Assembly: GCA_027077805.1 (NCBI GenBank)
Contig: JALWTS010000041.1
Coordinates: 73,234-137,233 of the forward strand
Source of the DNA: Gammaproteobacteria bacterium
GTDB lineage: Bacteria > Pseudomonadota > Gammaproteobacteria > JABHGC01
Direction: 5' to 3'
Length of the DNA stretch: 64,000 nucleotides
A program made the position numbers and the translations under genes. This document shows positions 1 through 60,906 of the stretch, piece by piece. The notes under the pieces are model-generated. The model searched no databases, was not told where the DNA came from, and was given only the letters and a program-made list of their open reading frames with translations. The number at the start of each line of letters is the position of its first letter. Positions within the stretch are counted from its first letter, which is position 1.

Positions 1-248
1 GGTGGGGGAAAATTGTCCGTAATGGCCATATCCGTTGTTAAAGTTTGGCTACTAATAAAACCAATGCCTTGTTGTACTGCCCATGCTTGATAAAATGCAA
101 TATCTGGCAACCGCACTTGGGTGGCGATGGCTTCTAACAAAGGAATTTTTTGTTGCCTTGCCATTTTTTTCAACTCGGTTAATTGTTCTGTGGTAATTAG
201 CCCTTGTGCGACACCCGCTTCAATTAATTGCCCTGAACTAACGCCCAT
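1..248 (-). CDS. Partial CDS (N-terminus only; gene continues past the window start): T2SSE_N / MshEN-type N-terminal domain, probably the start of a GspE/PilB/MshE-family pilus assembly ATPase
   Basis: Minus-strand ATG at 248-246 overlaps the 3' end of the upstream PilT-like gene. Translation is MGVSSGQLIEAGVAQGLITTEQLTELKKMARQQKIPLLEAIATQVRLPDIAFYQAWAVQQGIGFISSQTLTTD..., which matches the spacing pattern of GspE/PilB N-terminal domains (L..GLIT.EQL......Q......L...L.......D.......A...G..F). Confidence 0.45.
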   Translation of the reverse strand, partial: MGVSSGQLIEAGVAQGLITTEQLTELKKMARQQKIPLLEAIATQVRLPDIAFYQAWAVQQGIGFISSQTLTTDMAITDNFPP

Positions 249-1308
249 ACAATCCCCTTTGACGAAGTTGGCTTTGTAAAATATCGGGATAATGGGCAGT
301 TTTTATGGCTAAGGCTTTATCAATCACTTGTTGTTTGACTAAATCAGCCAAAGATTGCTCCAAAGTTTGCATCCCTGAATCGGTGGTAGCCGATTCCATC
401 ACACTATAAACTTGTTGGGTTTTATGATGACGGATTAGATTTGCTACCGCAGGATTAATCATTAAAATTTCTAAGGCAGGCACACGCCCTTCGCCTTGTT
501 TTATGGGTAATAATCGCTGTGCGACTACGGCACGCAATACGCGTGATAATTGTTGGCGTACCATCGCTTGTTCTTCCGCAGGAAATGATCCTAAAATCCG
601 CTCAATCACGCCAACCGCATCCCCCGTATGCAAGGTTGAAAACACCAAATGCCCCGTTTCTGCCGCAGTAATAGCTACTCGCATCGTCTCTAAATCTCGC
701 ATTTCACCGACTAATATCACATCAGGGTCTTCTCGTAATGCTGACCGAATGGCTTGCGGATAACTGGGGACATCTAAATGCAATTCCCGTTGATGTACTA
801 AGCTCTGAATATTTTGATGCAAATATTCAATGGGGTCTTCAATGGTTAAAATATGACAGGCTCGATCTTGATTAATTTTATGGATTAGTTGGGCTAAGGT
901 AGTCGTTTTACCACTACCCGTTGCACCTGTTACTAAAACCAAGCCGTCTTTTAAACCACATAATTGATATAATTGCTCAGGCAAACCTAAAGATTGTAAG
1001 GAGCGAAATCGACTGTCTAAATAACGCACCGCTAACGCAGGCTGTTGGCGTTCATAATAAATATTGATCCGAAACCGTTGCCCACTGTTTAAGGAATAAG
1101 CAAAATCAATGCTTTTGTCTTGCTGATAGGATTGTAATAAATTATCAGGGACTATTTGTTGAATCATGGCCTCAATTTGTGGCAAACTTAAACACTCACC
1201 CAATGGTTTTAATTGCCCATGTTGGCGTAAATAAATCGGTTGATTGACGCTAATATGTAAATCAGAGCCTTGTTGCTCAATACATTGTTGTAATAATAAA
1301 TCAAACAT
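238..1308 (-). CDS. PilT-family type IV pilus retraction ATPase (third PilT/PilU paralog in the window)
   Basis: 356 aa. Walker A is GATGSGKTTTL, Walker B is DVILVGEMRD, the His-box TGHLVFSTLHT is present, and the PilT-type AIRNLIRE-like motif AVANLIRHHK is present. Length and architecture are typical of PilT. Confidence 0.8.
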   Translation of the reverse strand: MFDLLLQQCIEQQGSDLHISVNQPIYLRQHGQLKPLGECLSLPQIEAMIQQIVPDNLLQSYQQDKSIDFAYSLNSGQRFRINIYYERQQPALAVRYLDSRFRSLQSLGLPEQLYQLCGLKDGLVLVTGATGSGKTTTLAQLIHKINQDRACHILTIEDPIEYLHQNIQSLVHQRELHLDVPSYPQAIRSALREDPDVILVGEMRDLETMRVAITAAETGHLVFSTLHTGDAVGVIERILGSFPAEEQAMVRQQLSRVLRAVVAQRLLPIKQGEGRVPALEILMINPAVANLIRHHKTQQVYSVMESATTDSGMQTLEQSLADLVKQQVIDKALAIKTAHYPDILQSQLRQRGLYGR

Positions 1309-12518: not shown

Positions 12519-12520
12519 TT

Positions 12521-17361: not shown

Positions 17362-17638
17362 AATAGCCTTTAATAAATCAATAACCTTTAAGTTGTTTAA
17401 TAAAAAAATATTAGATTGAAACCAAAAACTTCATTAATTCTCTTTCTAAATGTCCAGAAATTAGATTTGCATAACTCACAGTAATATAGTGAGAATCTCG
17501 CCATACAATAACATTATTAGATTAGGTAGTAGTTTCCATATAGCAATAACCAGTACTAAAAATATTACTTTTTAGTACATTCAATAGCATAAGTTTTTAT
17601 TTTAGGCACATTATCATTGACAAACATTATGATAACAA

Positions 17639-19693
17639 CTAGTTATTTCCTTTCCAGGAACTAACTAAGCCCTGAATGTGACTATCACCATCAAAATTAA
17701 CTTTCTGCATCGTCAATAAACTTGAGCTTTTTATTAATTTCGGATAGATCAATAACATCATGTTATAAGCACCCCTAATCGACAAATGGTGATGATCACG
17801 ATAGTATACCTGCCCAACTTTGTCAAAAAACATACACTGCTCGTTGGGACACTGAACATCACGGACAGAAACATAGTTATTGGTTAGACTCTGTAATTTT
17901 TTAGCATAATCCAACTCTTTACGCACAGATTTCATATTAGGTTGACATATTTTATTAAGCCATTCATCTGAAATCACGAAATTAGGAACAGCCCTGCATT
18001 GCGCAATCAACGTATTTGGACGAATAAAATCTTCAAGATATATGGCTTGATGCCCCATTGCTTCTAGTTTAGATAAATGTTGATTTATAATAGGTGCAAC
18101 AAGTTCTGGTTTATCACGCTTGGCACTAGTAATTATAACAACTGCAGGCTTAGTTAGCGTAGACATCCACAACAATACTGACTTATTGCGTTCAATACAT
18201 TGCTGAGTTAAATCGGGTCGTTTAAACTCCCTGATCAACCCATTAAAACCACTTTGTGGTGTGCAACCATTTTGATAAGCAACTAACACATTTGAATCTG
18301 GAAATAATTCTACGAATCCAGCCACAAGATGCAAAGCATGACTATCACCCCAAAGGATAATATCAAGTGAACCATCTCTATGGGTAGCACAAGTAAATAA
18401 ATCACTAGGATATTTTTCACTTGGTGCCCCAGTGCAATAGTTTTTAATTTCAAGTTGTCGCCAATCACGATTGGCCAAATTTATTCGATAGTCAGGTATT
18501 CTGTCTGGAATATGGGATAAAACCACAATAAACAAAACAATACCCATCATTGCCAATGGAAATGTCAATTGGAGCAAGCAATCCTTAAAAGATGTTGCTT
18601 TGTGTGTCCAAATAGACGCATAACGCAATGGAGTTTCAATTGTTTTATTTAAAACAACCGCCATAAACAGCATAGCCCAAAAAAGCAAAATTTGGTCGAT
18701 ATTATCAAGCTCTAAACCATATAGTGCTTTGTAATAAACAATTAATGGCCAATGAACAAGATATAACGAATAGCTTATTTTTCCCAAAAATATGACCACT
18801 CGATGTTCAAATACAATTCTTGCAATAATTGATGCCGCACCTGAAAAAATCATGAGTCCTGCACCAACTGCAGGGAAAAGTGCATTATAATAGGGAAAAA
18901 GGCTGTGCTCATTAAGTAACATTGCAGGTGCAATACATAAAACTAATCCAAGCAAAAAAATAGTATTACCCAGTGTTTTTTTACTTTCTGACAATAAATT
19001 TGGTAAGTAAGCTAATAACGCACCTATACCAAATTCAAAAATACGAAATGGGAACCAGTAAAAGGATGTTGATACACCATCTCTAAAATTTGACATTACT
19101 CCTGTTGAGGATGTGATGTATGACATCACAGTTGTTTCAATTACTAACAGATTAAGTAAAAATGATATCATTGATGCTATCAAAACAGCAATTAACACGC
19201 CATAACGTCCCCAAAAACGATAGGAGAAATACAAAACGAAAGGCCAAAATAGGTAAAATTGTTCCTCAACTCCCAAAGACCATAAATGTAGCAAGGGCTT
19301 AGTTGCAGCAGTAGCATCAAAATAACCGACTTGTGACCAAAAATATATATTAGCCAAACTGAAAATTGAAAAAATACTAGAATCAATCAGATTGCTAAAT
19401 TGTTCATTAGAAAATAATAAGAAACCAACTAATACTGACACTAATACTGTAACAGCCATAGCAGGAAACAAGCGTCTAGCTCTACGCCAATAAAAAGCAG
19501 AAAATCTTATGTTGCCTTGCTCACATTGATCAAGTAATATTTTAGATATTAGAAAACCACTAATAACAAAAAAAATATCAACACCCACAAAACCACCTGG
19601 TAGTAAAGATACGTCTAAATGAGTAGCAATGACCAGTAAAACGGCAAGTGCTCTCATACCATCAATAAATATTAAATATTTCATAATTACCAA
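17639..19693 (-). CDS. Acyltransferase family 3 (OafA-like O-acetyltransferase) with a C-terminal SGNH domain
   Basis: 684 aa. The N-terminal 10-TM acyl_transf_3 pattern is present (…IFIDGMRALAVLLVIATHL…). The C-terminal approximately 300-aa soluble domain is typical of OafA/YrhL glycan O-acetyltransferases. Confidence 0.7.
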   Translation of the reverse strand: MVIMKYLIFIDGMRALAVLLVIATHLDVSLLPGGFVGVDIFFVISGFLISKILLDQCEQGNIRFSAFYWRRARRLFPAMAVTVLVSVLVGFLLFSNEQFSNLIDSSIFSIFSLANIYFWSQVGYFDATAATKPLLHLWSLGVEEQFYLFWPFVLYFSYRFWGRYGVLIAVLIASMISFLLNLLVIETTVMSYITSSTGVMSNFRDGVSTSFYWFPFRIFEFGIGALLAYLPNLLSESKKTLGNTIFLLGLVLCIAPAMLLNEHSLFPYYNALFPAVGAGLMIFSGAASIIARIVFEHRVVIFLGKISYSLYLVHWPLIVYYKALYGLELDNIDQILLFWAMLFMAVVLNKTIETPLRYASIWTHKATSFKDCLLQLTFPLAMMGIVLFIVVLSHIPDRIPDYRINLANRDWRQLEIKNYCTGAPSEKYPSDLFTCATHRDGSLDIILWGDSHALHLVAGFVELFPDSNVLVAYQNGCTPQSGFNGLIREFKRPDLTQQCIERNKSVLLWMSTLTKPAVVIITSAKRDKPELVAPIINQHLSKLEAMGHQAIYLEDFIRPNTLIAQCRAVPNFVISDEWLNKICQPNMKSVRKELDYAKKLQSLTNNYVSVRDVQCPNEQCMFFDKVGQVYYRDHHHLSIRGAYNMMLLIYPKLIKSSSLLTMQKVNFDGDSHIQGLVSSWKGNN

Positions 19694-34495: not shown

Positions 34496-36169
34496 CTATG
34501 GATTTAAAGCAGGCAATCCAGTGCGTGCTTTAGGCTGAGTTACACATAATTGATGCACCGCAAGATGTTGGAACTGTTGCTGAAAACGGGTTTTCCACGG
34601 CTTAATATCAATGGCTTGCTGATTATATACAGCGGATTGTAATTCTTGAAACAATTCATTCACCTCAATAGGATTCACTTGAGGATAAATATTACATAAA
34701 ACTCTGGCAATATTTTCTAAAGGACTATTATCGGGCATATTCAAACAAGACCCCGCAAATTTAGTCATTAGACTTGCTACGTCCTCCGCTGTTGCTTCAA
34801 ATTCTAAACGTCGCATAAAACGATAAATACGCAAAGAAGTCGGCAAATACTTATCTAAACGCTGTAATAGCCAAAACAACAAACCATAACGTCGTTTGGT
34901 TTCAACCAAGGAACGCTGTGAACGTTGCAAAGACTGAAAAAATACCGATAATTTTCCAGTACTACGACTAATCATCTGGAATAAAACTTCTAAATGGCGG
35001 TAGCAAAACAATAACATTTTGTCCATATATTTAGTGATAATACTGACCCCAGGACGTCCTGCCCCCATCCAAGCACCAAAGAAAAAAATTGCAAACCCGA
35101 TAATCGCAAACCCTAAATACCCAACGGATTGATAAAAAGGGACAGTATATTGCTGTTCTTCAAGCCTATCTAATTTTGCTTCACTAGAGCCAATGCCAAT
35201 TTTTTTGGCAGGGAGTTCCGACCATGTTTCTTTATGATATTGCACATCCCACCACATAACTTGAATTGAAGGTAATTCTAAGATTCCAGTGCTTTGAGGC
35301 ACAACAGTATAAGTTTCAATGCGTTTACCCACAATAGTTTTGCCATCAGTGCTTAGATTATTTTCAGTACTTGATGATTCTAAATACCATTTAAAATCTT
35401 TATTTTGGACTAAAGACGCAATACTAGGAAGATCCTCACCACGACTGCCTCTTGCTTCTAAAGTAATAGTGTAATTAATTGGCTCACCTTCTCTACGTCG
35501 ATTGGCACTATCCATATATCCTGAAATCTTTAAATCGTAAAGAGGCAGCCAAAAATAATTAAAATTTGCTCTGGGTCTTACTCGTAAATGAGTTGCTTTA
35601 GTTTTAATGGATGTAGGAATGGGAGTAAAGCTTTGAGCTTGCGGATTCTGGGCTTGGGAATATTGGGGATATTGATTGTAATTAGGATAGGAATTAGGAT
35701 AAGAATATTGGGGTGGTTGCGTATAGTTTCGATAGGGATATGGCAATTGACGATTATAGTTTTGATAGGGATATGGTGATTGACGATTATAGCTTGGATA
35801 ACTAGAACGATTGTATTGAGAAGACGATTTGAGTGTAATCTCAATCTCAGGAATAGTTAAATCCCCAGCGGCCAATGGAATTAAGGAATATTGATACTCG
35901 GCAACCGCATATTGTTGTTCAAAATACGTTTTAGGTTCACCACCTTCGTTTACATTATCAACGACGGCATTTTCAACCACGGGCATAGGAACATTAGTAA
36001 TTTCAACTGATTTGGGATCATATACAATTTTCATTGTATAAATCACCGCTTGTTTCATATAAGGGTTGGGTTCTGAGATACTCGTTTCAACTCTGGCTGT
36101 ATCCGCAAACACTAAACCATCGATATTAACGAATACCAATAAAAAATAAATTATCGATCGTATGCGCAT
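34496..36169 (-). CDS. BatD-like protein (aerotolerance / oxygen tolerance operon), with a Pro/Tyr/Asn/Gln-rich low-complexity insert
   Basis: N-terminal signal, a C-terminal TM segment, and the last position in a MoxR-DUF58-VWA-VWA-TPR operon. Internal PYPYQNYNRQ-type repeats are present. Confidence 0.55.
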   Translation of the reverse strand: MRIRSIIYFLLVFVNIDGLVFADTARVETSISEPNPYMKQAVIYTMKIVYDPKSVEITNVPMPVVENAVVDNVNEGGEPKTYFEQQYAVAEYQYSLIPLAAGDLTIPEIEITLKSSSQYNRSSYPSYNRQSPYPYQNYNRQLPYPYRNYTQPPQYSYPNSYPNYNQYPQYSQAQNPQAQSFTPIPTSIKTKATHLRVRPRANFNYFWLPLYDLKISGYMDSANRRREGEPINYTITLEARGSRGEDLPSIASLVQNKDFKWYLESSSTENNLSTDGKTIVGKRIETYTVVPQSTGILELPSIQVMWWDVQYHKETWSELPAKKIGIGSSEAKLDRLEEQQYTVPFYQSVGYLGFAIIGFAIFFFGAWMGAGRPGVSIITKYMDKMLLFCYRHLEVLFQMISRSTGKLSVFFQSLQRSQRSLVETKRRYGLLFWLLQRLDKYLPTSLRIYRFMRRLEFEATAEDVASLMTKFAGSCLNMPDNSPLENIARVLCNIYPQVNPIEVNELFQELQSAVYNQQAIDIKPWKTRFQQQFQHLAVHQLCVTQPKARTGLPALNP

Positions 36170-36186
36170 ATTAACCACCTTAAATA

Positions 36187-37488
36187 TTACCAAGGACGAG
36201 ACTCGTATAACAACCGTTGTCCTTGTCCTAATTGTCGTTTTTCTTCATTCAAAAATTGCTGTTGAATTAATTGACTGGGTTCCCCTTCCACTTGCTGTAA
36301 CCATTGTTCAATAATTCTAGGAGGAATATCGGGTTTCCCGTCTAAACGTCCCACTGGAATTTTTCCTTGTTGCAACTGTTGTTCACCAATGGTTTCAAGT
36401 TCTTCTAAATTTTCAATTTCTTGTTGTTCATAACTCGCTGATTCGCCCTTGTCCTGATTTTCTTTATTATCACCTGAGGCTTTGGTATCAAATTGCTGTT
36501 GCCCTTCACTTTTATCTTGCTCTTGATCGCCTTTATTGCCTTTTTGCACTTGATCTTGCTTATCGCCTTTATCTTGTTCGGGCTGTTCTTCGCCTTGTTG
36601 CTCTTGATCTTGTTGTTGCTGTTCCGCTTGTTCTGATTCTGAATCTCGTTGAGCCTTATCTTGTTCTTTAGAATCTGAATCCTGATTTTCCTGATCTGCT
36701 AGTTGTTTTGAATCAGAACCTTGTTGCTCTTGATCTAGTGGTTGTTTTGAGTCAGAACCTTGTTGTTCTTGATCTTGCGCCTTAGACTCAGACCCTTGGT
36801 TTTCTTGATCCTGTTGTTCTTCTGATTCAGAGCCTTGCCGTTCTCGATCTTGCACCTTAGACTCAGACCCTTGGTTTTCTTGATCCTGTTGTTCTTCTGA
36901 TTCAGAGCCTTGTTGCTGTTCTTCAGAAGAATCACCACTAGATTGTTGCCGTTGTTTTTGTTGTTCTTGTGCTTGTTTCTCTTTTTCTTGATTTTCTTGT
37001 TGTTCTTGTGCTTGTTGCTGTTTCTCTTGTTGTTCTTTTTCTTGTTGTTCCTGTTTCTCTTTTTCTTGTTTTTGCTTTTCTTCAGGCTGTTCTGGTTCTA
37101 AAGTGTATAAGTCCAATTGTTTTTGTGCTAAAGCTAAATTAAATTTAGCATCTTCATTATCAGGCTCTCTCGCCAAAGCCCGTTTATAACTCTCAATTGC
37201 TTGATAAAATTTTGCTTGACGAAACTGGGCATTACCTAAATTGTACAAAGCATCACCAAGCACCTCAGGACGAGTAACGCGTTGAAATGCTTGTTCAGCT
37301 AGAACATATAATCCCGCCCGATAATACGCCACCCCTTTACGATAATCATCTGTAAACTTTTCAGCGGCAATACGATAATTACCATCCGCAAAGGCAGTTA
37401 AAGCCTCTTTATCAATATTATTATTCGCAATAGCAATGCTGTAACTTATACTCAATACACTGATTATGACTATTTTGAAATATCTCAT
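36187..37488 (-). CDS. BatC-like TPR-repeat protein with an approximately 200-aa hyper-acidic Glu/Gln/Asp/Ser tandem-repeat region
   Basis: N-terminal TPR motifs (…AYYRAGLYVLAEQAFQRV…ALYNLGNAQFRQAKFYQAIESYKRALAREPDNEDAKFNLALA…) followed by QGSESEEQQDQENQGSESK repeats. Confidence 0.6.
   Translation of the reverse strand: MRYFKIVIISVLSISYSIAIANNNIDKEALTAFADGNYRIAAEKFTDDYRKGVAYYRAGLYVLAEQAFQRVTRPEVLGDALYNLGNAQFRQAKFYQAIESYKRALAREPDNEDAKFNLALAQKQLDLYTLEPEQPEEKQKQEKEKQEQQEKEQQEKQQQAQEQQENQEKEKQAQEQQKQRQQSSGDSSEEQQQGSESEEQQDQENQGSESKVQDRERQGSESEEQQDQENQGSESKAQDQEQQGSDSKQPLDQEQQGSDSKQLADQENQDSDSKEQDKAQRDSESEQAEQQQQDQEQQGEEQPEQDKGDKQDQVQKGNKGDQEQDKSEGQQQFDTKASGDNKENQDKGESASYEQQEIENLEELETIGEQQLQQGKIPVGRLDGKPDIPPRIIEQWLQQVEGEPSQLIQQQFLNEEKRQLGQGQRLLYESRPW
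36690..36930. repeat. Coding tandem repeat array (75-bp unit, about 3 copies, the two 3' copies identical over their first 57 nt) inside the BatC-like gene
   Basis: Units start at 36781 and 36856 (cttagactcagacccttggttttcttgatcctgttgttcttctgattcagagccttg…). A diverged copy lies upstream (36700-36780). Confidence 0.7.
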
Positions 37489-37489
37489 A

Positions 37490-38512
37490 TTATTTCCGCC
37501 ATCTCACCCGCTGTACTTGTCGAAAACGATATAACAACAACAACATCATTAGACCTACTAAAATATAAAAACGTTCATGCCAAACCCGAATTGGATTTTT
37601 CTTTACCATACTAGGCGGTTGATTTTGTTTAATATGCTCTAAAATTGTTTCAACATCATCATTACGATAACTAGCGGTAACATAGATACCGCCACCCGCT
37701 TGTGCTAATAGTTCTAATCCTGTTTTATCTAACTTAGAGATCACTCGTCGTCCTTGCTGATCCACTAACCACCCCCCTTGAGGACTGGCTACAGGCACGC
37801 CCTGAGTTTCACCGACGCCAATCACATATAAATTAATACCATATTGTCTGAATTGTCGCACTTGTTCTGATAAATTAGGTTCTTGAAAATCACCATCTGA
37901 CACCAATACAATCGCTTTGGCATTGCCCGAAGGCTGGCTTAAAAACAAACGCTGTGCTTTATCCAAGGCATTAGACAAACGTGAGCCTTGTAAACGCACT
38001 AAATCAGTGGATAATGCAGGTAAAATTCGTAATAACGACCAACGATCTTCAGTAATCGGTGATAAAACATTGGCAACTGTGGCAAACGCAATCAAACCCA
38101 CTTTTAAATTCTGGGCTTGCTCCACAAAATCTTTCACTTCTTGTTTCGCTCTTGCCAAACGATTAGGACGTACATCTTGGGCTGACATGGAACGTGACAT
38201 ATCAAATAAAATCACCACGCCAGTCGTGGGTTCAAAAATATCAATATCAGTATAATCCCAACGAGGCCCTGCCATTGCAATCACAGCCATGACCCATAAC
38301 ATTGTCCATAATAAAAAGGCTTTACGCCGTTTCACCCCTTCTTCATTATTATGGATAATTAAATAAGGCAACAAATGTTTATCAGCATAGTGCTGTAATC
38401 TATCATAATAATCTTCTCTTAATTGTGCTCTTGGTAACCACCATAAGACTAATGGAAAAATTAAGCCCCATAACCATATGGGTTGTTCAAAATGAAAGCC
38501 GACTGTTTCCAT
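37490..38512 (-). CDS. VWA domain protein (BatB-like)
   Basis: N-terminal TM helices followed by a von Willebrand A domain (…VVILFDMSRSMSAQDV…AKAIVLVSDGDF…). Confidence 0.65.
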   Translation of the reverse strand: METVGFHFEQPIWLWGLIFPLVLWWLPRAQLREDYYDRLQHYADKHLLPYLIIHNNEEGVKRRKAFLLWTMLWVMAVIAMAGPRWDYTDIDIFEPTTGVVILFDMSRSMSAQDVRPNRLARAKQEVKDFVEQAQNLKVGLIAFATVANVLSPITEDRWSLLRILPALSTDLVRLQGSRLSNALDKAQRLFLSQPSGNAKAIVLVSDGDFQEPNLSEQVRQFRQYGINLYVIGVGETQGVPVASPQGGWLVDQQGRRVISKLDKTGLELLAQAGGGIYVTASYRNDDVETILEHIKQNQPPSMVKKNPIRVWHERFYILVGLMMLLLLYRFRQVQRVRWRK

Positions 38513-38519
38513 AGTTATC

Positions 38520-39535
38520 TCACTGCTGATTCCGACCTAAACTAATACCAACCATCATCATTAATATTAATAAAGCAAAACCTAAGGGCCAGCGATATAA
38601 GGGTTGTGGAATTAGAATGGTTTTGGATTTAGCGTCGGTTTTTTCTAAGGTATTAATATCTTGGTAAATGGCTTCTAAGGCCTGAGTATCAGTCGCTCGA
38701 AAATATTGACCACCTGTTTGTTGGGCAATCCTCATTAATAGGTTTTCGTCAATACTCATTTCTTCCATTTCGATTTTACCCTCTTTCCAAATCGGCACTT
38801 CTTTTTGTTGACTACCCACACCAATAGTATAAATCCGAATATTAAAGTGATCTGCCATCATAGCAGCCTGAACAGGCAATAAACTTCCTTCAGTATTTTC
38901 ACCATCGGTAATTAAAATCAATACCCGAGATTCGGCAGGTCGTTCTTTTAATTTTTTTACGGCTAAACCAATGGCATCACCAATGGCTGTTGCATCACCA
39001 ACCATACCAGGTGAAAGATGCGTTAACATATCTCGAACCACTGCCCCATCCAAAGTTAAGGGTGCTTGTACATAAGCTTGATCACCAAATAAAATCAAAC
39101 CAATCCTATCGCCCTGCCGTTGTTGAATAAACTCATCAACAACTTCTTTTACCACATCCATTCGAGTTACTTTGCGTCCATGTAAACTAAAATCCAAAGC
39201 TAACATAGAACGAGACGTATCCACTGCCAACATTAAATCATAACCTCTACTAGTTACTTGGGTATGTTCTTCTAGCCACTGGGGACGCATTACCGTTGCC
39301 ACTAGGGCTATCCATAACAATGCCCATAAAATGGCTTGCAACCAATCATGCGACTGTAAACCTTTATCAGAGGAATGAAATGCTTGTTCTAAACGCTCAA
39401 TCGCAGGATGATATAATACGCTTTCCGCCATTTCTTCCTCTTGCTCTAGGGCTTCTCGATCTGGCCAAAAAAATCTCACCAACCAAGGCAAGGGTAATAA
39501 CAAGGCCAACCAAGGCCAATAAAAACTAAACATGC
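38520..39535 (-). CDS. VWA domain protein (BatA-like)
   Basis: MFSFYWPWLALLLPLPW…LMLAVDTSRSMLA…RVLILITDGENTEG. The start is taken at the internal Met. Confidence 0.65.
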
Positions 39536-40050
39536 TGTTTTTTTCTAAACCATCGTAGTAAAGATAATATATTCGGTTGCTTGTAAGGATCAATTTCTAC
39601 CCAAGCCAGACTTGCTTTAAATAAGGCTCGCCAAGCTTTACGATCAATTTCTAAGTGTTCATTCGGGGGTGCATACGGTAAGTCTAATAATAATTTTCGA
39701 TATTTTGACCATTGAAAGCCTTTGGGATCGTTTTGTTGTAACCATAATAGCCACGCCTCGCCTTCTAAACCAGCACAAGCACTACGACCACAACGTGCCA
39801 TTGCAATTCGTCGTAATAATATAGAAAATTTACCCATTAATACTTGGCTAGGATGACGATTAAACTGGCGTCGTAAGCGTAATAATTGGCTTTTTGCATC
39901 CGTTTTCCATGTTTGTCCTGTTGGAATAGATAACCACAACCAAATAATAAATAACAATACCAATAATAAAGCAAACGCAATCAAGACATCAGTAAGCGAC
40001 CACCAATACACTGACACATCTAAACCACGAATATCACGTAATTGATCCAT
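39526..40050 (-). CDS. DUF4381-like small membrane protein of Bat/MoxR operons
   Basis: 174 aa with a single TM (LIAFALLLVLLFIIWLWL). It has the conserved position between the DUF58 and BatA genes. Confidence 0.4.
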   Translation of the reverse strand: MDQLRDIRGLDVSVYWWSLTDVLIAFALLLVLLFIIWLWLSIPTGQTWKTDAKSQLLRLRRQFNRHPSQVLMGKFSILLRRIAMARCGRSACAGLEGEAWLLWLQQNDPKGFQWSKYRKLLLDLPYAPPNEHLEIDRKAWRALFKASLAWVEIDPYKQPNILSLLRWFRKKQHV

Positions 40051-40064
40051 CCGCCTAATCCTTG

Positions 40065-40982
40065 TTAACGCCCAACTCGATAGGCTCGTTTACGCAAGCC
40101 TTGCAGTAATACTTGATGCACATTTTGCTCAGTAGAAACAGGAATAACATCCGCCCCTAAACGCTTAGCAATCATTTCCAAGCGTTGACGCTGTTGTTGC
40201 CATTGTTGTCGATATTGCGCACAACCAGCACGATTATCGGTATCTAACTCCAATTCTATGCCAGTCCCTGTCGCAAACACGACTCGTCCCATCGCAGGAA
40301 TCTCATAATCAGCCTTATCATCCACAGGAAATAATACCACCTCATGTTTTTGCTGTAATCGACCTAAGATTTGCTCAAAATTCACTAAATCTTGACTAAA
40401 ATCACTAATAATCAAAATCAATGACCCAATCGCTGTGCCATGAATTAATTTTTCCATCGCGTCTGCAAGATAGTGTGAGGAATTTTTTTGTTTAGGCGCC
40501 GCTTCCGTCATTGAACGTAACATTTGCCACAAAGAACGCCTTGAACTACTTGGAGGGAAATAGCGTAACCCATTGGGATCACCGAATAGTAAAGCTCCGA
40601 CTCTATCTTGACTTGCCGAAGCCGCCCAACCTAACAAAGCTGAAATCCTTGCCGCTTGGACTAATTTAAAGGTATTCCTAGTACCAAACTGCATATGACT
40701 ACCAATATCTACACATAATAATACACTACGTTGTCGTTCTTCTTTAAAAACTTTTAAATGTGGCACATTAGTTCTTGCGGTAACTCGCCAATCCATATTA
40801 CGAATTTCATCACCTTCTTGATACTCTCTAACCTCATCAAAGTTCATCCCTTGCCCACGAAATACTGATTGGTATAAACCACATAATAATGAATTAACAG
40901 GATGACGTGAGGCTAAACCCAAGGTATGTGCTTGATGACGTAACTCAAGTAAATCATCTAAATCAGGCAATAAAACTTTCAT
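40065..40982 (-). CDS. DUF58 domain protein (MoxR-associated, VWA-like)
   Basis: 305 aa (…YQEGDEIRNMDWRVTART…) immediately downstream of the MoxR ATPase. Confidence 0.7.
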   Translation of the reverse strand: MKVLLPDLDDLLELRHQAHTLGLASRHPVNSLLCGLYQSVFRGQGMNFDEVREYQEGDEIRNMDWRVTARTNVPHLKVFKEERQRSVLLCVDIGSHMQFGTRNTFKLVQAARISALLGWAASASQDRVGALLFGDPNGLRYFPPSSSRRSLWQMLRSMTEAAPKQKNSSHYLADAMEKLIHGTAIGSLILIISDFSQDLVNFEQILGRLQQKHEVVLFPVDDKADYEIPAMGRVVFATGTGIELELDTDNRAGCAQYRQQWQQQRQRLEMIAKRLGADVIPVSTEQNVHQVLLQGLRKRAYRVGR

Positions 40983-41008
40983 AAAACGATCAAATAGGAC
41001 TGAAATAA

Positions 41009-41965
41009 CTAAGGGACGGCAACCACTTCTAGTAAGCGTTTAATAAAATCATCTGGGGTAACACCATCTGCTTCTGCCTCAAAGGTTAACAATACCCGAT
41101 GGCGTAAAATATCCAAAGCCACACTTTGAATATGCCCGGGCGTAACATAAGTATCACCACTTAACCATGCTTTGGCTTTAGCACAACGGGCTAACGCAAT
41201 ACTCGCCCGAGGGGAAGCACCAAATCGACACCAACGTTTTAAATCAGTATCATAATTCCCAGGTTGTCTTGACCCCATAATCAATGACACAATATATTGA
41301 TTTAATTTTGGATCAATATAAATTTTAGCTACCGCCTCTCTGACTAAAAATAAATCTTCTTGGCTAAGGACTTTTTTGGTCTTTTTAACTTTATGTTGTT
41401 GGACAGAACTATCCAATGCCATAATGGCTAATTCTTCCTCGGCATTAGGATAATCTACCCAAACATGCATTAAAAATCTATCCAACTGGGCTTCAGGTAA
41501 TTGATAAGTCCCTTCTTGTTCAATCGGATTTTGCGTGGCTAATACCATAAATAATGGTGGCAAGGCATAAGTTTTTTGCCCTACCGTTACTTGATGTTCT
41601 GCCATAGCTTCTAGCAAAGCAGACTGTACTTTTGCAGGCGCACGATTAACCTCATCCGCCAATAAAATATTATGGAAAATCGGCCCTGCTCGAAATTCAA
41701 ATTCACCTTGTGCTTGACGATACACATCCGTACCGATTAAATCTGAAGGTAATAAATCAGGGGTAAATTGAATACGATGAAAATCACCTTCAACTGCTTC
41801 TGATAAAGCTTTAACTGCGGTAGTTTTTGCTAACCCAGGCATCCCTTCAATTAATAAATGACCATCACACAATAAGGCAATTAACATATTTTCCACTAAA
41901 TTAGTTTGCCCAATTACTCGTGAGGCAATATGTTCTCGCACGACATTTAATTGGTTTAAATCCAT
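41009..41965 (-). CDS. MoxR-family AAA+ ATPase
   Basis: Walker A is GMPGLAKTTAV and Walker B is LLADEVNRAPAKVQSALLEAMAE. 318 aa. Confidence 0.85.
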   Translation of the reverse strand: MDLNQLNVVREHIASRVIGQTNLVENMLIALLCDGHLLIEGMPGLAKTTAVKALSEAVEGDFHRIQFTPDLLPSDLIGTDVYRQAQGEFEFRAGPIFHNILLADEVNRAPAKVQSALLEAMAEHQVTVGQKTYALPPLFMVLATQNPIEQEGTYQLPEAQLDRFLMHVWVDYPNAEEELAIMALDSSVQQHKVKKTKKVLSQEDLFLVREAVAKIYIDPKLNQYIVSLIMGSRQPGNYDTDLKRWCRFGASPRASIALARCAKAKAWLSGDTYVTPGHIQSVALDILRHRVLLTFEAEADGVTPDDFIKRLLEVVAVP

Positions 41966-49014: not shown

Positions 49015-50208
49015 TTGGTAATGAGCAAAACAAACCTAGCCTTGTGTCATCCCGAACAATTACCACCAAGCTTAGATGGTAGCCGGGGGAGTTATCGCAC
49101 CTTTGATCCACAACAATTAATTCATGCCAATAATGACTTTGAAGCGGCTCAACAATGGTTAGCAGAATATGCCACCCATTATTTTTCTAAACATACCTTA
49201 CGCCAATATGAAAAAGAAATTACCCGATTTTTTTATTGGTCAGTCAATCAAGCGGGCAAAGCAGTCTCTGATTTAAGCAAACAAGATTATGTCTTGTACG
49301 AGCAATTTTTAATGAATCCACAACCGGCTGATATTTGGTGTGGTCCCCGTCGTCCCCGTCATCTGCGTAATGGTCAAATCAATCCCAAATGGCGTCCATT
49401 TGTAGGGCCTTTAAACTTAAGCTCTATTCAAACTGCCTTTGCTGCAATTCAGTCTATGTTAAATTATTGGGTACAAGCTAAATATTTAGCAGCAAATCCT
49501 TTAAGTTTAAAACGTGGGGTATTCAGCAAAAAACAACAACAAAATTATAAAATTGAACGGATTATCGAAACGGATCATTGGCAAGTGATTTGGCAAGCCA
49601 TAGAAAATATGCCCAAAGATAGTCGTAAAAACATGGCAAATTACCAAAGAGCCCGTTATTTAATCGCCTTGTTTTATCATACAGGGGCAAGAATTAGTGA
49701 ACTAGAACGTCATACGCATGGTGATATATACTGTCGTAATACTAAAACAAATCAGTGGTGGCTAAGAGTGATTGGCAAACGCTCGAAACAACGAGACATT
49801 CCTATTGATCAATCATTATTAGTCATTATTCAAAATTTTCGTCAATTTCATCAGCTCCCCCCCTATCCTACGCCTGATGATCCCACGCCATTATTACCCA
49901 AATTATATATCAATCACGACAAAGGAATTACCGCACGACGTGCCAATCAAATTTTAAAACAAATTTTAACTGAAGCAGCAACTCGATTAGCCAAACAATC
50001 CCCACATCAAGCTGAAAAATTACGCAAAGCCTCTGCACACTGGTTCCGTCATAGTTATGCCACAGACTTATTAGAAGCAGATGTTTCAATCAAGACAGTC
50101 AAAGATAATCTCGGACATCAAGATATAAAAACAACCTATTTATATGTTCATAAGGATAAAGAACAACAACATCAAGAAACTCAGGGCAAACTTAAATCAA
50201 TTTATTAA
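49015..50208 (+). CDS. Tyrosine-type site-specific recombinase / phage-type integrase
   Basis: C-terminal catalytic motifs …ARISELERHTHGD…, HWFRHSYATDLL… and …TTYLYVH (R-H-R-Y). Confidence 0.8.
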   Translation: MVMSKTNLALCHPEQLPPSLDGSRGSYRTFDPQQLIHANNDFEAAQQWLAEYATHYFSKHTLRQYEKEITRFFYWSVNQAGKAVSDLSKQDYVLYEQFLMNPQPADIWCGPRRPRHLRNGQINPKWRPFVGPLNLSSIQTAFAAIQSMLNYWVQAKYLAANPLSLKRGVFSKKQQQNYKIERIIETDHWQVIWQAIENMPKDSRKNMANYQRARYLIALFYHTGARISELERHTHGDIYCRNTKTNQWWLRVIGKRSKQRDIPIDQSLLVIIQNFRQFHQLPPYPTPDDPTPLLPKLYINHDKGITARRANQILKQILTEAATRLAKQSPHQAEKLRKASAHWFRHSYATDLLEADVSIKTVKDNLGHQDIKTTYLYVHKDKEQQHQETQGKLKSIY

Positions 50209-51659: not shown

Positions 51660-51733
51660 GCACCCGTAGCTCAGTTGGATAGAGTGTCGGTCTCCGAAGC
51701 CGAAGGTCACAGGTTCGACTCCTGTCGGGTGCG
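51660..51733 (+). tRNA. tRNA-Arg (anticodon CCG)
   Basis: GCACCCGTAGCTCAGTTGGATAGAGTGTCGGTCTCCGAAGCCGAAGGTCACAGGTTCGACTCCTGTCGGGTGCG shows full cloverleaf pairing. It is near-identical in architecture to E. coli argX. CCA is not encoded. Confidence 0.85.
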
Positions 51734-53530: not shown

Positions 53531-53700
53531 TTAGCATCCTACAACTTTCTCACATTATTATTATTGTTGTTGTTGTTTTTTTTATTATTGTTGTTATTGT
53601 TTGTTGTTTTTTTACTATTATAGTGAAAATAAACAACAATGCAACATTTTTTTTAACTTTTTTTCAAAAAAAACAACAATGTTGCTTTTTTGTTACTTTT
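53531..53700. repeat. Simple-sequence, very AT-rich region upstream of the porin gene ((TTA)n, (TTG)n, T8-9 tracts, imperfect palindrome)
   Basis: ttattattattgttgttgttgtttttttt…ttgttgttattgtttgttgttttttt. It also contains an AACAACAATGCAACA / TGTTGC inverted repeat. Confidence 0.6.
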
Positions 53701-53790: not shown

Positions 53791-54945
53791 CTATCCCCCA
53801 AATTGAATTTCATCGTCCTCATCTTCCTCACCCTCAAGCGATAGTTCCTGCATTCTTGAACCGCCCCGAGACTTCGCATCCCCTTTACTGCCTAATTTAA
53901 TCATCAAACGAACATTATTAGGTGAGTCAGCATGACGCAGTGCATCATCATAACTAATTTCACCTTGGGTATATAAATCATACAAGGCTTGGTCAAATGT
54001 CTGCATACCTTGCTCAGTAGAACGAGTCATTAATTCTTTAATTTTATGTACTTCCCCTTTGTGAATTAAATCACTCATTAATGGAGTATTAATTAAAATT
54101 TCAACGGCACAACGCCGACCTTCACCATCTTTAGTCGGAATTAACTGTTGGGCAATAATCGCTTTTAAATTTAATGATAAGTCTGTTAACAACTGGGCAC
54201 GACGCTCTTCAGGAAAGAAGTTGATAATTCTATCTAAGGCTTGGTTAGCATTATTAGCATGCAGTGTTGATAAACACAAATGCCCTGTTTCCGCAAAGGC
54301 AATGCCATAATCCATGGTTTCCCGAGTACGAATTTCCCCAATTAGAATCACATCAGGTGCTTGACGTAAGGTATTTTTTAAAGCAACATCATAAGACTCA
54401 GTATCTAAGCCAACCTCACGCTGAGTTACAATACAGCCATCATGGTTGTGAATAAATTCAACGGGATCTTCAATGGTAATAATATGACCACTACTATTAC
54501 GATTACGATAACCAATGACGGATGCTAAAGAAGTGGATTTACCTGTACCCGTTGCCCCCACAAAAATAACTAATCCCCGCTTACACATGGCAATACTTTT
54601 CATTACATCGGGTAAATGTAGGTCCTCAAACCTTGGAATATTCGTTTCAATTCGCCGCAATACCATACCAACCGCATCGCGTTGCACAAATGCACTGACC
54701 CGAAACCGTCCAACTTTACTAGCACTAATGGCAAAGTTACACTCTTTAGTGCGTTCAAACTCTTCCCGTTGTTGGCTGGTCATAATGTTTAATACCAATT
54801 CTCTGGATTGCGCAATTGATAAGGGATTTTTAGACACAGGTGTCATACGACCACTTACTTTAATAGTGGGTGCGGCACCTGCGGTAATAAATAAATCAGA
54901 ACCACCTTTGGCCTTCATTAATTTTAATAAGGCATTAAAATCCAT
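53791..54945 (-). CDS. pilU: Type IV pilus ATPase PilU
   Basis: MDFNALLKLMKAKGGSDLFITAGAAPTIKVSGR… with Walker A GATGTGKST. It is downstream of pilT as in Pseudomonas. Confidence 0.85.
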   Translation of the reverse strand: MDFNALLKLMKAKGGSDLFITAGAAPTIKVSGRMTPVSKNPLSIAQSRELVLNIMTSQQREEFERTKECNFAISASKVGRFRVSAFVQRDAVGMVLRRIETNIPRFEDLHLPDVMKSIAMCKRGLVIFVGATGTGKSTSLASVIGYRNRNSSGHIITIEDPVEFIHNHDGCIVTQREVGLDTESYDVALKNTLRQAPDVILIGEIRTRETMDYGIAFAETGHLCLSTLHANNANQALDRIINFFPEERRAQLLTDLSLNLKAIIAQQLIPTKDGEGRRCAVEILINTPLMSDLIHKGEVHKIKELMTRSTEQGMQTFDQALYDLYTQGEISYDDALRHADSPNNVRLMIKLGSKGDAKSRGGSRMQELSLEGEEDEDDEIQFGG

Positions 54946-54956
54946 GAATTCCTCCT

Positions 54957-55994
54957 TTATTTAAAGTTATCTTTATTCGCCGCCTTCATTTGTGCATCTT
55001 GTTTGGTGATTAAACCACGACGTAGCAGTTCTGCCAAATGTTGATCTAAGGTCTGCATACCAACACCCTGTCCCGTTTGAATGGCTGAAAACATTTGGGC
55101 AATTTTATCTTCACGAATCAAATTACGAATGGCAGGTGTGCCAATCATAATTTCCCAAGCGGCAGTTCGCCCCCCCCCCACTTTCTTTAATAAGGACTGA
55201 GCAATCACGGCCCGCAATGATTCGGATAACATTGAACGTACCATACCTTTTTCCGCTGCAGGAAATACATCCACAATCCTATCAATGGTTTTCGCGGCAG
55301 AACTAGTATGCAAGGTGCCAAACACTAAGTGTCCTGTTTCAGCAGCAGTCAATGCTAAGCGAATCGTTTCCAAGTCCCGCAACTCACCCACTAGAATAAT
55401 ATCGGGATCTTGACGTAATGCGGAACGTAATGCTTCATTAAATCCTAAAGTATCACGTTTGATTTCCCGTTGGTTAATCAAACATTTTTTACTTTTGTGT
55501 ACAAATTCAATCGGGTCTTCAATGGTTAAAATATGACCGTACTCGGTATCATTTTTATAATCAATCATTGCCGCTAAAGTCGTTGACTTACCAGAACCTG
55601 TTGGCCCTGTTACTAAGATAATTCCTCTAGGATTATCGGCAATCGTTTTGAATACATCAGGACAACCTAAATCTTCCAAACTCAAAATTTTAGATGGAAT
55701 GGTACGAAACACGGCACCTGCACCACGATCTTGGTTAAAAGCATTCACCCGAAAACGAGCAAGCCCCGGAATTTCAAATGAAAAGTCACATTCTAAATAC
55801 TCCTCATAATCCCGCCGTTGTTTATCATTCATAATATCATACACCAAACTATGTACAGCTTTATGATCTAATGGTGGCATGTTAATACGACGCACATCAC
55901 CATCTACCCGAATCATAGGTGGTAAACCCGCTGATAAATGTAAATCTGAGGAATTATTTTTCACCCCAAATGCTAGCAATTCTGAAATATCCAT
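54957..55994 (-). CDS. pilT: Type IV pilus retraction ATPase PilT
   Basis: MDISELLAFGVKNNSSDLHLSAGLPPMIRVDGDVRRI… is near-identical in pattern to P. aeruginosa PilT. The AIRNLIRE motif is present. It contains a G10 tract (plus-strand C10 at 55170-55179) encoding VGGGR. Confidence 0.9.
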   Translation of the reverse strand: MDISELLAFGVKNNSSDLHLSAGLPPMIRVDGDVRRINMPPLDHKAVHSLVYDIMNDKQRRDYEEYLECDFSFEIPGLARFRVNAFNQDRGAGAVFRTIPSKILSLEDLGCPDVFKTIADNPRGIILVTGPTGSGKSTTLAAMIDYKNDTEYGHILTIEDPIEFVHKSKKCLINQREIKRDTLGFNEALRSALRQDPDIILVGELRDLETIRLALTAAETGHLVFGTLHTSSAAKTIDRIVDVFPAAEKGMVRSMLSESLRAVIAQSLLKKVGGGRTAAWEIMIGTPAIRNLIREDKIAQMFSAIQTGQGVGMQTLDQHLAELLRRGLITKQDAQMKAANKDNFK

Positions 55995-56088
55995 CAATCT
56001 AACCTTATAAAATAAAAAAGCCTTTGTTTAATTATAGACAAACCCCATTATATTTAAATCGTAACTTAGGTTTAAATCACTAAAAATC

Positions 56089-60032: not shown

Positions 60033-60906
60033 TTATTTAATTGATTTTTTATATTTTTTGGGAATTTCTCTTAAAAATCGTGAGGCTTTTTGTGTTTGAT
60101 AAATGCTACCATAAGTCATACGATATTTTGCACAAGTTAAATACAATTGTTGCATGGCCCTAGTCATACCCACATAACATAAACGCCGTTCTTCTTCTAA
60201 TTGCTTTGCTTCTTGGCTACAGGCATAATGTGGAAACAGTCCTTCCGCCATTCCCACCATAAATACGACTGAAAATTCCAAACCTTTGGCAGCATGAATG
60301 GTCATCAACTGTACTTTCACTAAAGGATCGTTCACACCTACGGTTGTTTCGCTGGTATCTACAACCACATGGGCTAAAAAATAATCTCGTTCACTCGTCG
60401 CAATGTCTTTATCCTCTGGAAATTCAAATTGTGTCGTTGCATTGACTAATTCTTGTAAATTCGCCACCCGATTTTGGGTTACAGAATCTTTTAAACTGGC
60501 AAAATGTTCTAATAAACCGCTGTCTTAAATCACCGTATCCACTTGGGCTTCTAAACTTAAACCCATGACTTTTTGTTGCATATCAGTAATTAACTGGCAA
60601 AAATTTGCAATAGCATTGACAGCCCGTTTGGTCAAAACTTTAGTTCCACCTAATGTCATTCCTGCTTGCCATAATGAACACTTATGTTCATTGGCATATT
60701 GTTGCATTTTAGCCAAAGTCGTTTTGCCAATCCCTCTAGGCGGATGATTAATCACTCGTTCAAAAGCAGTATTATTATCAGGATTCGATAATAATTGTAA
60801 ATACGCCAAGGTATCTTTGACTTCTGCCCGTTCAAAGTTTCATCGGTGCGGTAACCGCTTCTCTTTGTTTTTGATTGAGAGAATTGATACTATATGAAAT
60901 ATCCAT
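60033..60906 (-). pseudogene. Decayed UvrD/Rep-family DNA helicase gene (large internal deletion, frameshift and in-frame TAA)
   Basis: Minus-strand start MDISYSINSLNQKQREAVTAP (UvrD residues 1-21) is fused out of frame to a region matching UvrD at about residue 300 (…ERAEVKDTLAYLQLLSNPDNNTAFERVINHPPRGIGKTTL…). There is an in-frame TAA at 60527-60525 where UvrD has VIKDSGL, and then the C-terminal …LMTIHAAKGLEFSVVF…EEERRLCYVGMTRA…SRFLREIP. The Walker A region is absent. Confidence 0.6.

What the first reader, a model, noticed from the sequence alone, without database searches (positions are those of the whole stretch)
55170..55179. G10 homopolymeric tract inside the pilT coding sequence: a potential slipped-strand phase-variation switch for pilus retraction
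Seen directly: the plus strand carries C10 at 55170-55179, which is G10 on the coding strand of pilT. It encodes Val-Gly-Gly-Gly-Arg (GTG GGG GGG GGG CGA) in the conserved …LKKVGGGR… segment. In a genome of roughly 38-40% GC that prefers A/T-ending codons, using GGG three times in a row is unexpected. A 10-nt G tract is within the length range known (established knowledge from Neisseria, Haemophilus and Campylobacter contingency loci) to undergo high-frequency +/-1 slippage, which would frameshift pilT. Inference: this may give stochastic ON/OFF switching of pilus retraction (twitching/gliding, phage susceptibility, DNA uptake). The window also holds two further PilT-family ATPases (pilU and the 238..1308 gene), which could buffer or specialise the phenotype.
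Basis: partly seen in the sequence, partly recalled or inferred. Interest (0 to 1): 0.6.

Follow-up and report, generated by a model that had tools for sequence, protein, structure and literature searches.

The report
G10 run inside intact pilT
A run of ten G's really does sit inside the pilus-retraction gene pilT of this uncultured bacterium, where it spells three conserved glycines, but chance codon choice can explain it and no available data show it acting as an on/off switch.

Summary
C10 at 55170-55179 (+) is G10 on the coding strand of an intact, canonical pilT (345 aa). It reads GTG GGG GGG GGG CGA, which is V272-G273-G274-G275-R276 counted from the ATG. It is the only G/C run of 8 or more in about 83 kb.

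The Gly-Gly-Gly-Arg motif is invariant in 79 genome orthologs, and none of them has a G run longer than 6. The two nearest relatives I could find use GGC GGC GGC and GGA GGG GGT. A scan of 241 million metagenome records found seven contigs with G8 or G9 at this site. All were in frame, including three strains about 98% identical that all carry G9.

A one-base slip would truncate PilT to 282 aa (G9) or 290 aa (G11) and remove the AIRNLIRE motif.

The case for design is weak. GGG makes up 20% of Gly codons here. Synonymous-codon shuffles give a G/C run of 10 or more somewhere in the window 2.8% of the time, which is roughly one or two per genome. No length variation could be examined, because every available assembly comes from one sample.

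Best reading: an incidental, slippage-prone synonymous homopolymer, not a demonstrated contingency switch. It is a modest curiosity.

The parts
55170..55179 (-). G10 homopolymer on the pilT coding strand (C10 on the + strand). It spans nt 816-825 of the 1038-nt CDS, about 79% of the way along.
   Evidence: Read directly. Only G/C run of 8 or more in the window. 0.02 expected per window from shuffles.
55167..55181 (-). Codons GTG GGG GGG GGG CGA, which are V272 G273 G274 G275 R276 (numbered from the ATG at 55994). This is the invariant GGGR motif of PilT.
   Evidence: The motif is invariant in 79 orthologs and in P. aeruginosa PilT. G273, G275 and R276 are also invariant in the two paralogs.
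54957..55994 (-). pilT, the type IVa pilus retraction ATPase. Intact, 345 aa, stop codon at 54957-54959.
   Evidence: TIGR01420 511 bits. 606 bits to PDB 3JVU. Same length as about 120 close homologs. GC3 of 0.312 against a window mean of 0.283 +/- 0.031, so the composition is native.
55110..55133 (-). AIRNLIRE motif (aa 288-295), downstream of the tract and lost after any +1 or -1 slip.
   Evidence: Sequence. The motif is described as highly conserved and PilT-specific in PMC6762196.
55145..55147 (-). TGA stop reached in the -1 frame if the tract shortens to G9. Product 282 aa ending ...GGGELPLGKL.
   Evidence: In-silico edit and translation.
55123..55125 (-). TAA stop reached in the +1 frame if the tract lengthens to G11. 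Product 290 aa ending ...GGGANCRLGNYDWHTCHS.
   Evidence: In-silico edit and translation.
53791..54945 (-). pilU, 11 nt downstream of the pilT stop, with its own AGGAGG ribosome-binding site. Probably co-transcribed with pilT.
   Evidence: TIGR01420 446 bits. Sequence. The pilT-pilU pair is conserved in related loci.
56031..56076 (-). Two overlapping sigma-70-like promoter matches upstream of pilT. Consensus matches only.
   Evidence: 10 of 12 matches each. The region has fewer such sites than its shuffles, so this is weak evidence.

Best explanation
The G10 run is an incidental by-product of synonymous codon choice over the invariant Gly-Gly-Gly-Arg motif of a fully functional, native pilT.

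Likely origin (inferred): relatives show states one synonymous step away. One Sedimenticola genome has GTG GGT GGG GGG CGA. This genome also tends to reuse the same codon for repeated residues. One or two silent changes would therefore create the run.

Maintenance (inferred): the three glycines and the arginine are essential, so purifying selection holds the population consensus at the in-frame length.

Consequence (inferred from other bacteria): a G10 run is intrinsically prone to replication slippage. This gene should yield pilT-null cells, G9 or G11, more often than an ordinary gene does. Those cells would make truncated PilT of 282 or 290 aa without AIRNLIRE, and would probably be hyperpiliated, non-twitching and resistant to pilus-dependent phages. 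The change is reversible.

On this reading the site is a mutational hot spot that could behave like a switch. Nothing shows it has been selected, conserved or used as one.

What is shown: the tract, its frame, the gene's identity, the predicted truncations, the rarity among orthologs and the chance expectation. What is inferred: the origin, the slippage rate and the phenotype.
For: - The tract and its coding context are confirmed. pilT is intact and canonical and has native composition.
- GGG accounts for 20% of Gly codons. GGG follows GGG in 4 of 8 Gly-Gly pairs outside pilT. PP, KK and FF are likewise often encoded by repeated identical codons.
- Synonymous-codon shuffles give a G/C run of 10 or more in 2.8% of windows. 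That is about 1-2 per genome if the genome is 3-4 Mb. Dinucleotide shuffles give 0.02 per window.
- There is no other G/C run of 8 or more in about 83 kb. There are no tetranucleotide-type or other contingency repeats in the window.
- The tract is absent from 79 orthologs and from the two nearest relatives. L004 is one synonymous T>G away from the window state.
- The same codon state (G9) turns up sporadically in unrelated lineages with GC of 0.39-0.60. It is always in frame, and it is invariant in three strains about 98% identical.
- The Neisseria phasome study describes exactly this class: coding repeats that encode functional residues and are invariant between strains (PMC5953494).
Against: - pilT is a specific and biologically plausible target. 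Pilus genes are classic phase-variable loci, and the chance of G10 or longer in pilT itself is only 0.12% in codon shuffles.
- Long G/C runs at this site are very rare. Only seven contigs turned up in 241 million metagenome records and none among 79 genomes. This suggests they are normally selected against, so persistence here may need an explanation.
- In Bordetella, 29 of 30 C/G tracts longer than 8 were polymorphic among close relatives (PMC1891110). A G10 is therefore unlikely to be truly static.
- No read-level data were available, so heterogeneity has not been excluded.
Confidence: 0.6

Rival explanations
1. This is an evolved contingency locus. The G10 tract is maintained by selection because reversible +1/-1 slippage switches pilus retraction OFF and ON. 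That would diversify the population for twitching, adhesion, DNA uptake and resistance to pilus-dependent phages.
For: - The length lies in the proven phase-variable range: modal G9-G10 in Neisseria, and G9-G10 in C. jejuni with 1e-4 to 1.6e-3 changes per division.
- Both slips give clean truncations that remove AIRNLIRE.
- The codon choice is unusual against orthologs: 0 of 79 have a run longer than 6. In low-GC relatives the motif is GGT GGT GGT (L028, L042).
- The probability in pilT by codon shuffling is 0.12%.
- Deleting pilT abolishes susceptibility to pilus-specific phages in P. aeruginosa (PMC12607626 abstract). An OFF state could therefore be advantageous.
Against: - No length polymorphism has been observed anywhere. 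All seven metagenome contigs with G8 or G9 at this site are in frame, and three diverged strains of one species all carry G9.
- The tract is not conserved in the nearest relatives.
- It is the only long G/C tract in about 83 kb, whereas organisms that use this strategy carry many.
- The tract encodes invariant residues and lies 79% of the way into the gene.
- The genome-wide chance expectation is about one such run.
- Three full-text searches found no report of repeat-mediated phase variation of pilT.
Confidence: 0.2
2. This is a sequencing or assembly artefact. The true sequence would have an interrupted or different-length run (for example GGT GGG GGG), and the consensus caller smoothed it to G10.
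For: - The window comes from a metagenome-assembled contig of a single sample.
- Homopolymers are the commonest site of consensus error.
- The Logan re-assembly of the run does not cover the tract, so there is no independent confirmation.
Against: - G10 gives exactly the reading frame and the V-G-G-G-R residues that the invariant motif requires. A length error would break the frame.
- The NCBI and ENA versions agree base for base over 7 kb, although they share the same reads.
- G9 at the same codons exists in six independent contigs, so the state is biologically possible.
- A substitution error that turns a T, C or A into G inside the run is not a typical Illumina error.
Confidence: 0.08
3. 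This is programmed recoding. RNA polymerase or the ribosome would slip on the G10 run to make a fixed fraction of a C-terminally truncated PilT isoform lacking AIRNLIRE, with a regulatory role.
For: - The only support is that both alternative frames terminate quickly, giving defined products of 282 and 290 aa.
- AIRNLIRE has been proposed to couple PilT to PilU.
Against: - The run is not conserved in any relative, which argues against a programmed signal.
- From general knowledge, known transcriptional slippage sites are A/T runs, and I identified no stimulatory element.
- The in-frame product is the full-length canonical protein.
Confidence: 0.02

Closest known systems
Homopolymeric-tract contingency loci of Neisseria, Campylobacter and Bordetella. 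For pili, from my own knowledge, the poly-G tract in Neisseria pilC1/pilC2.
   Same: An intragenic poly-G of 9-10 bases whose +1 or -1 change frameshifts a type IV pilus gene. The length matches the modal length of proven tracts. C/G tracts longer than 8 are nearly always polymorphic in Bordetella.
   Different: - Those loci show length polymorphism between strains and within cultures, occur many per genome, and are conserved as repeats across the species. Here none of this is shown: there is one tract in about 83 kb, it is absent from relatives, and no variant allele has been seen.
- The host gene is the cytoplasmic motor pilT, not a surface component.
- The tract sits late in the gene, over invariant residues.
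- The organism is an uncultured environmental gammaproteobacterium, not a host-adapted pathogen.
Invariant coding repeats that encode functional residues, and 'sporadic' chance tracts, as set apart in the Neisseria phasome analysis (PMC5953494).
   Same: This is a coding repeat whose length is fixed by the amino acids it encodes. That paper judges the siaD G7 tract to have arisen by chance from genome context and not by selection for mutability. The G9 tract in L085/L086/L089 is likewise invariant across strains.
   Different: G10 is longer than those examples and is not a multiple of three. It is G of GTG followed by three GGG codons. Its intrinsic instability should therefore be higher.
Coding-sequence C/G tracts in housekeeping-type genes of Bordetella (for example kdpD C10 and BP2595 C12; PMC1891110).
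   Same: Long C/G runs inside non-surface genes that are interrupted by a substitution in sister species. They appear to be recently created, unstable runs.
   Different: In Bordetella the comparison of three close genomes demonstrates polymorphism. No close genome exists here.
PilT of Pseudomonas aeruginosa (PDB 3JVU/3JVV) and the pilT-pilU tandem.
   Same: Full-length alignment at 606 bits. Walker A (GPTGSGKST), the His box (TGHLVFGTLHT), GGGR and AIRNLIRE are all present, and pilU lies directly downstream.
   Different: Only the DNA encoding of GGG differs. P. aeruginosa and all 79 sampled orthologs avoid a long G run.

Membership tests
Simple-sequence-repeat phase-variable (contingency) locus | A repeat at or above the length at which slippage is frequent, inside the ORF or its promoter | tested here: met
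   An uninterrupted G10 inside the ORF. Screens use C/G longer than 8. Modal proven tracts are G9-G10.
Simple-sequence-repeat phase-variable (contingency) locus | A change of one repeat unit switches expression, by frameshift or loss of product | tested here: met
   In silico, G9 gives 282 aa and G11 gives 290 aa. Both lack R276 through the C-terminus, including AIRNLIRE.
Simple-sequence-repeat phase-variable (contingency) locus | Tract-length polymorphism between strains or within a population | tested here: inconclusive
   - The only other copy (ENA scaffold) is identical and comes from the same sample.
- The Logan assembly does not cover the tract.
- The species-specific pattern, allowing any run length, gave 0 hits in metagenome contigs.
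- In other species, seven contigs with G8 or G9 are all in frame.
- Reads could not be inspected.
Simple-sequence-repeat phase-variable (contingency) locus | Tract longer or more frequent than base composition and codon usage predict | tested here: inconclusive
   - Per window: 0.02 expected from dinucleotide shuffles, and 2.8% of synonymous-codon shuffles reach 10 or more.
- Per genome of 3-4 Mb this is about 1-2, so a single run is not an excess.
- There is no enrichment of long G/C runs in about 83 kb.
- The whole genome was not available.
Simple-sequence-repeat phase-variable (contingency) locus | The repeat is retained at the orthologous site in related strains or species | tested here: not met
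   0 of 79 orthologs have a G run longer than 6. The nearest relatives use GGC GGC GGC and GGA GGG GGT. No conspecific genome exists in the collections.
Simple-sequence-repeat phase-variable (contingency) locus | Reversible, high-frequency phenotypic switching | not testable with these tools
   This needs a culture or single-cell and amplicon data.
PilT, type IVa pilus retraction ATPase | Scores above the family cut-off and aligns over its full length with characterised PilT | tested here: met
   TIGR01420 at 511 bits against a cut-off of 319. 606 bits over residues 1-344 of PDB 3JVU.
PilT, type IVa pilus retraction ATPase | Walker A, the His box and the PilT-specific AIRNLIRE motif | tested here: met
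   GPTGSGKST, TGHLVFGTLHT and AIRNLIRE are all present. The paralogs PilU and 238..1308 lack AIRNLIRE, having LMSDLIHK and AVANLIRH instead.
PilT, type IVa pilus retraction ATPase | Genomic context: pilT-pilU tandem next to yggS-proC-yggT | tested here: met
   The same arrangement is found in related loci.

The most novel reading that the evidence does not exclude
The G10 tract is a genuine contingency switch. It would turn the pilus-retraction motor PilT off and on in a free-living, uncultured environmental gammaproteobacterium. PilU depends on PilT, so PilU-assisted retraction would go off with it. This would be the first repeat-controlled pilT. It would also be an example of pathogen-style phase variation of pilus dynamics outside host-associated bacteria, perhaps driven by pilus-specific phages.
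Probability: 0.12. Interest if true: 0.5.

Novelty: new member of a known kind. Interest (0 to 1): 0.25.

Why it matters
If the tract does switch, an environmental bacterium would be hedging its bets between retractile pili and non-retractile, hyperpiliated, phage-resistant pili through a single-base slip in the motor gene. No such target turned up in three full-text literature searches.

If it is incidental, as I think more likely, it is a useful caution. A homopolymer in the right length range, inside a plausible gene, is expected about once per genome from codon usage alone. It should not be called a contingency locus without evidence of length polymorphism.

In either case the site is a likely hot spot for spontaneous pilT-null mutants. 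It is also a place where assemblies and annotations of this organism may show spurious or real frameshifts.

Tried and rejected
1. Independent copies of the locus.
- The exact PilT exists only on two contigs from one sample, and the ENA scaffold is base-identical to the window. This gives no independent information.
- The Logan assembly of SRR13853571 stops at pilT nt 498 (L083) and resumes inside pilU (L101).
- Three guessed partial products were not on record: aa 157-345, aa 158-345, and a fragment starting at the tract.

2. Species-specific DNA pattern allowing any run of 6-16 bases between the exact flanks. It gave 0 hits in metagenome contigs.

3. Protein search with residues 157-276, meant to find truncated or frameshifted fragments of the same organism. 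It returned only fragments of about 200 aa from other organisms, at most 93% identical, and did not even list the full-length self-hit. It is uninformative.

4. Genome-contig scan. The organism's own species is not among them.

5. Horizontal acquisition of pilT from a high-GC donor, as an explanation for the GGG codons. Rejected: pilT GC3 is 0.312 against 0.283 +/- 0.031 for the window, and GGT is its commonest Gly codon.

6. Buffering by PilU. Rejected on published genetics.

7. Mismatch-repair status. No mutS or mutL lies in the window, so it is unknown.

8. Taxonomy. Flanking proteins are only 50-58% identical to any fetched locus. The nearest PilU is 78% identical and unnamed. The next named hits are Methylococcales and Sedimenticola at 72-74%. 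The lineage therefore stays unassigned beyond Gammaproteobacteria.

Full report
**1. The observation**

The plus strand reads ...GCAGTTCG CCCCCCCCCC ACTTTC..., with C at exactly 55170-55179. On the minus strand this lies in an ORF running from the ATG at 55994 to the stop at 54957-54959. It reads AAG AAA GTG GGG GGG GGG CGA ACT, which is K-K-V272-G273-G274-G275-R276-T.

It is the longest G/C homopolymer in the window. The next longest are three C7 runs, all of them GGG GGG or CCC CCC codon pairs inside genes. Dinucleotide-preserving shuffles expect 0.02 G10 per 64 kb, and 2 of 100 shuffles contained one. The window GC is 37.2%.

**2. The gene**

- The ORF is a canonical, intact pilT. It scores 511 bits on TIGR01420 (cut-off 319) and 606 bits over residues 1-344 of P. 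aeruginosa PilT, PDB 3JVU.
- It carries Walker A, the His box, GGGR and AIRNLIRE.
- It has the same 345-aa length as about 120 homologs at 83-87% identity.
- pilU follows 11 nt after the stop, with its own AGGAGG site. yggS-proC-yggT lie divergently upstream, as in relatives.
- pilT GC3 (0.312) is within one SD of the window mean (0.283 +/- 0.031), and GGT is its commonest Gly codon. I see no sign of recent import from a GC-rich donor.
- The third PilT-family ATPase (238..1308) belongs to a separate MSHA-like pilus cluster, with pseudopilins, an MshE-type ATPase, a platform protein and a secretin. Its equivalent motif is G-E-G-R, as in PilU.

**3. How unusual the encoding is**

- Across 79 orthologs from one-genome-per-species contigs, G-G-G-R is invariant, but no gene has a G run longer than 6. 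Low-GC relatives use GGT GGT GGT.
- One Sedimenticola genome (L004) has GTG GGT GGG GGG CGA, a single synonymous T>G away from the window's state.
- To reach closer relatives I searched with the less conserved PilU. The nearest (78% and 75% PilU identity; PilT 82% and 81%) encode the motif as GGC GGC GGC and GGA GGG GGT.
- The window's PilT, PilU and ProC are singleton clusters at 90% identity among about 15 billion proteins. No conspecific or congeneric sequence is available.
- I ran a degenerate scan of 241 million metagenome records for any run of G8-G12 directly before the Arg codon and the conserved downstream peptide. It found seven contigs. Six have GGG GGG GGG (G9). One has G8 within M-G-G-G-G-R, an in-frame extra glycine. 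All are in frame.
- Three of the G9 contigs are strains of one species at 97.9-98.8% nucleotide identity, and all three carry G9.
- The state therefore recurs sporadically in unrelated lineages (GC 0.39-0.60). It is rare, and it has not been caught out of frame.

**4. Whether it exceeds chance**

- GGG is 20% of Gly codons in the window's 51 long ORFs (GGT 42%, GGC 22%, GGA 16%). Independent choice gives 0.008 for three GGG in a row and 0.002 with the preceding GTG.
- This genome also repeats codons. Outside pilT, 4 of 8 Gly-Gly pairs that start with GGG continue with GGG. Pro-Pro, Lys-Lys and Phe-Phe are often CCC CCC, AAA AAA and TTT TTT.
- I ran five thousand shuffles of synonymous codons, keeping every protein sequence and the pooled codon usage:

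| G/C run length | Anywhere in the 51 ORFs | In pilT |
|---|---|---|
| 8 or more | 42% | 3.9% |
| 9 or more | 10% | 1.5% |
| 10 or more | 2.8% | 0.12% |

- If the genome is 3-4 Mb, which is an assumption, that is roughly 1-2 such runs per genome.
- The window extended by about 10 kb on each side holds no other G/C run of 8 or more. It also has no other contingency-type repeats.
- One G10 is therefore what neutral codon choice predicts for a genome. Its landing in pilT is notable only after the fact.

**5. What a slip would do**

- G9 gives a 282-aa product ending GGGELPLGKL. G11 gives a 290-aa product ending GGGANCRLGNYDWHTCHS.
- Both lose R276 and everything downstream, including AIRNLIRE. 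That motif is conserved, specific to PilT, and proposed to couple PilT to PilU (PMC6762196).
- The same paper shows that PilU cannot retract pili without PilT protein.
- Loss of pilT abolishes twitching and susceptibility to pilus-specific phages in P. aeruginosa (PMC12607626 abstract).

**6. How unstable a G10 is likely to be (from the literature, not measured here)**

- In C. jejuni, which lacks mismatch repair, poly-G tracts change at 1e-4 to 1.6e-3 per division and settle at G9-G10 (PMC8355987).
- In Neisseria, the modal phase-variable tract is G9-G10. A G7 switches at less than 1e-5 and is judged a chance tract. A class of coding repeats is invariant because of the residues they encode (PMC5953494).
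- In Bordetella, 29 of 30 C/G tracts longer than 8 differ among three close species, including tracts in housekeeping-type genes (PMC1891110).
- The mismatch-repair status of this organism is unknown. No mutS or mutL lies in the window.

**7. Variation could not be tested**

- The ENA scaffold matches the window with 0 mismatches over 7038 bases and comes from the same sample.
- The Logan assembly of run SRR13853571 ends at pilT nt 498 and resumes inside pilU. The missing piece could not be retrieved.
- A species-specific pattern that allowed any run length found nothing in the metagenome collection.
- A protein search designed to find truncated fragments was uninformative.

**8. Verdict**

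The tract is real, rare among pilT genes and potentially unstable. A one-base slip would knock out pilus retraction. Every test that could separate an evolved switch from an accident came out neutral or negative:
- The tract is not conserved in the nearest relatives.
- Long G/C runs are not enriched nearby.
- It does not exceed the genome-wide chance expectation.
- An analogous G9 in another species is invariant.

My estimates are:
- an incidental, slippage-prone synonymous homopolymer held in frame by purifying selection: about 0.6;
- an evolved contingency switch: about 0.2;
- an assembly artefact: below 0.1;
- programmed recoding: about 0.02;
- the remainder is unassigned.

Three full-text searches found no report of repeat-mediated phase variation of pilT. 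If the switch were real, it would be a new member of a well-known kind. The decisive test is simple and cheap: the read pile-up over 55170-55179 compared with control homopolymers.

Noticed in passing
window 238-6450 and L093 11061-16054 (left of the window): The third PilT-family ATPase (238..1308) lies in a separate pilus cluster. The cluster has N-methyl pseudopilins, four unannotated ORFs, an MshEN-type assembly ATPase, a T2SSF platform protein and a secretin. This looks like an MSHA-like type IV pilus with its own PilT-like motor, whose motif is KQGEGR and not GGGR.
   Followed up: partly
window about 60090-60870 (L082 13226-14002): Two adjacent short ORFs (94 and 144 aa) both hit only the C-terminal domain of UvrD-type helicases. 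This is probably a truncated or split helicase remnant (pseudogene).
   Followed up: no
window 49015-50208 and 51660-51733: A tyrosine-recombinase (phage integrase family) gene lies about 1.4 kb from the only tRNA gene in the window. This may be the edge of an integrated element. It sits a few kb from the porin-pilU-pilT block.
   Followed up: no
window 34496-41965, repeats at 36661-37082: A Bat/MoxR-type operon: MoxR AAA ATPase, DUF58, DUF4381, two VWA proteins, a TPR protein and BatD. The TPR gene contains imperfect 39- and 75-nt tandem repeats that encode a low-complexity region.
   Followed up: no
window 53554-53700: The AT-rich intergenic region between the porin gene and pilU holds runs of ATT/TTG trinucleotides and several T8 or A8 tracts. 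It is the most repeat-like non-coding stretch near the pilTU operon.
   Followed up: no
window-wide, e.g. 20941, 37772, 44534, 46626, 49857, 58729: Doubled residues are often encoded by the same codon twice: GGG GGG, CCC CCC, AAA AAA and TTT TTT. This produces many runs of 6-8 bases inside genes. Outside pilT, GGG follows GGG in 4 of 8 such Gly-Gly pairs, against a 20% baseline.
   Followed up: partly
protein P0243 (Logan contig, 663 aa; not in the window): An unrelated organism carries a single ORF that joins PilT (residues 1 to about 325) to PilU (from about residue 35). It is either a natural pilT-pilU fusion or deletion, or a chimeric assembly.
   Followed up: no
L088 around 9965-10005 (metagenome contig JDSH01000080.1): One pilT ortholog has four glycines (K-K-M-G-G-G-G-R, ATG GGG GGG GGT GGC CGT) in place of the usual three. 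The loop apparently tolerates an in-frame extra Gly, as a +3 change of a G run would produce.
   Followed up: no
window about 11300-19550: The ENA assembly of the same sample splits this region into two scaffolds (scaffold_173 and scaffold_248). These are joined in the longer contig from which the window is taken. The junction falls in or near the glycosyltransferase/acyltransferase cluster.
   Followed up: no
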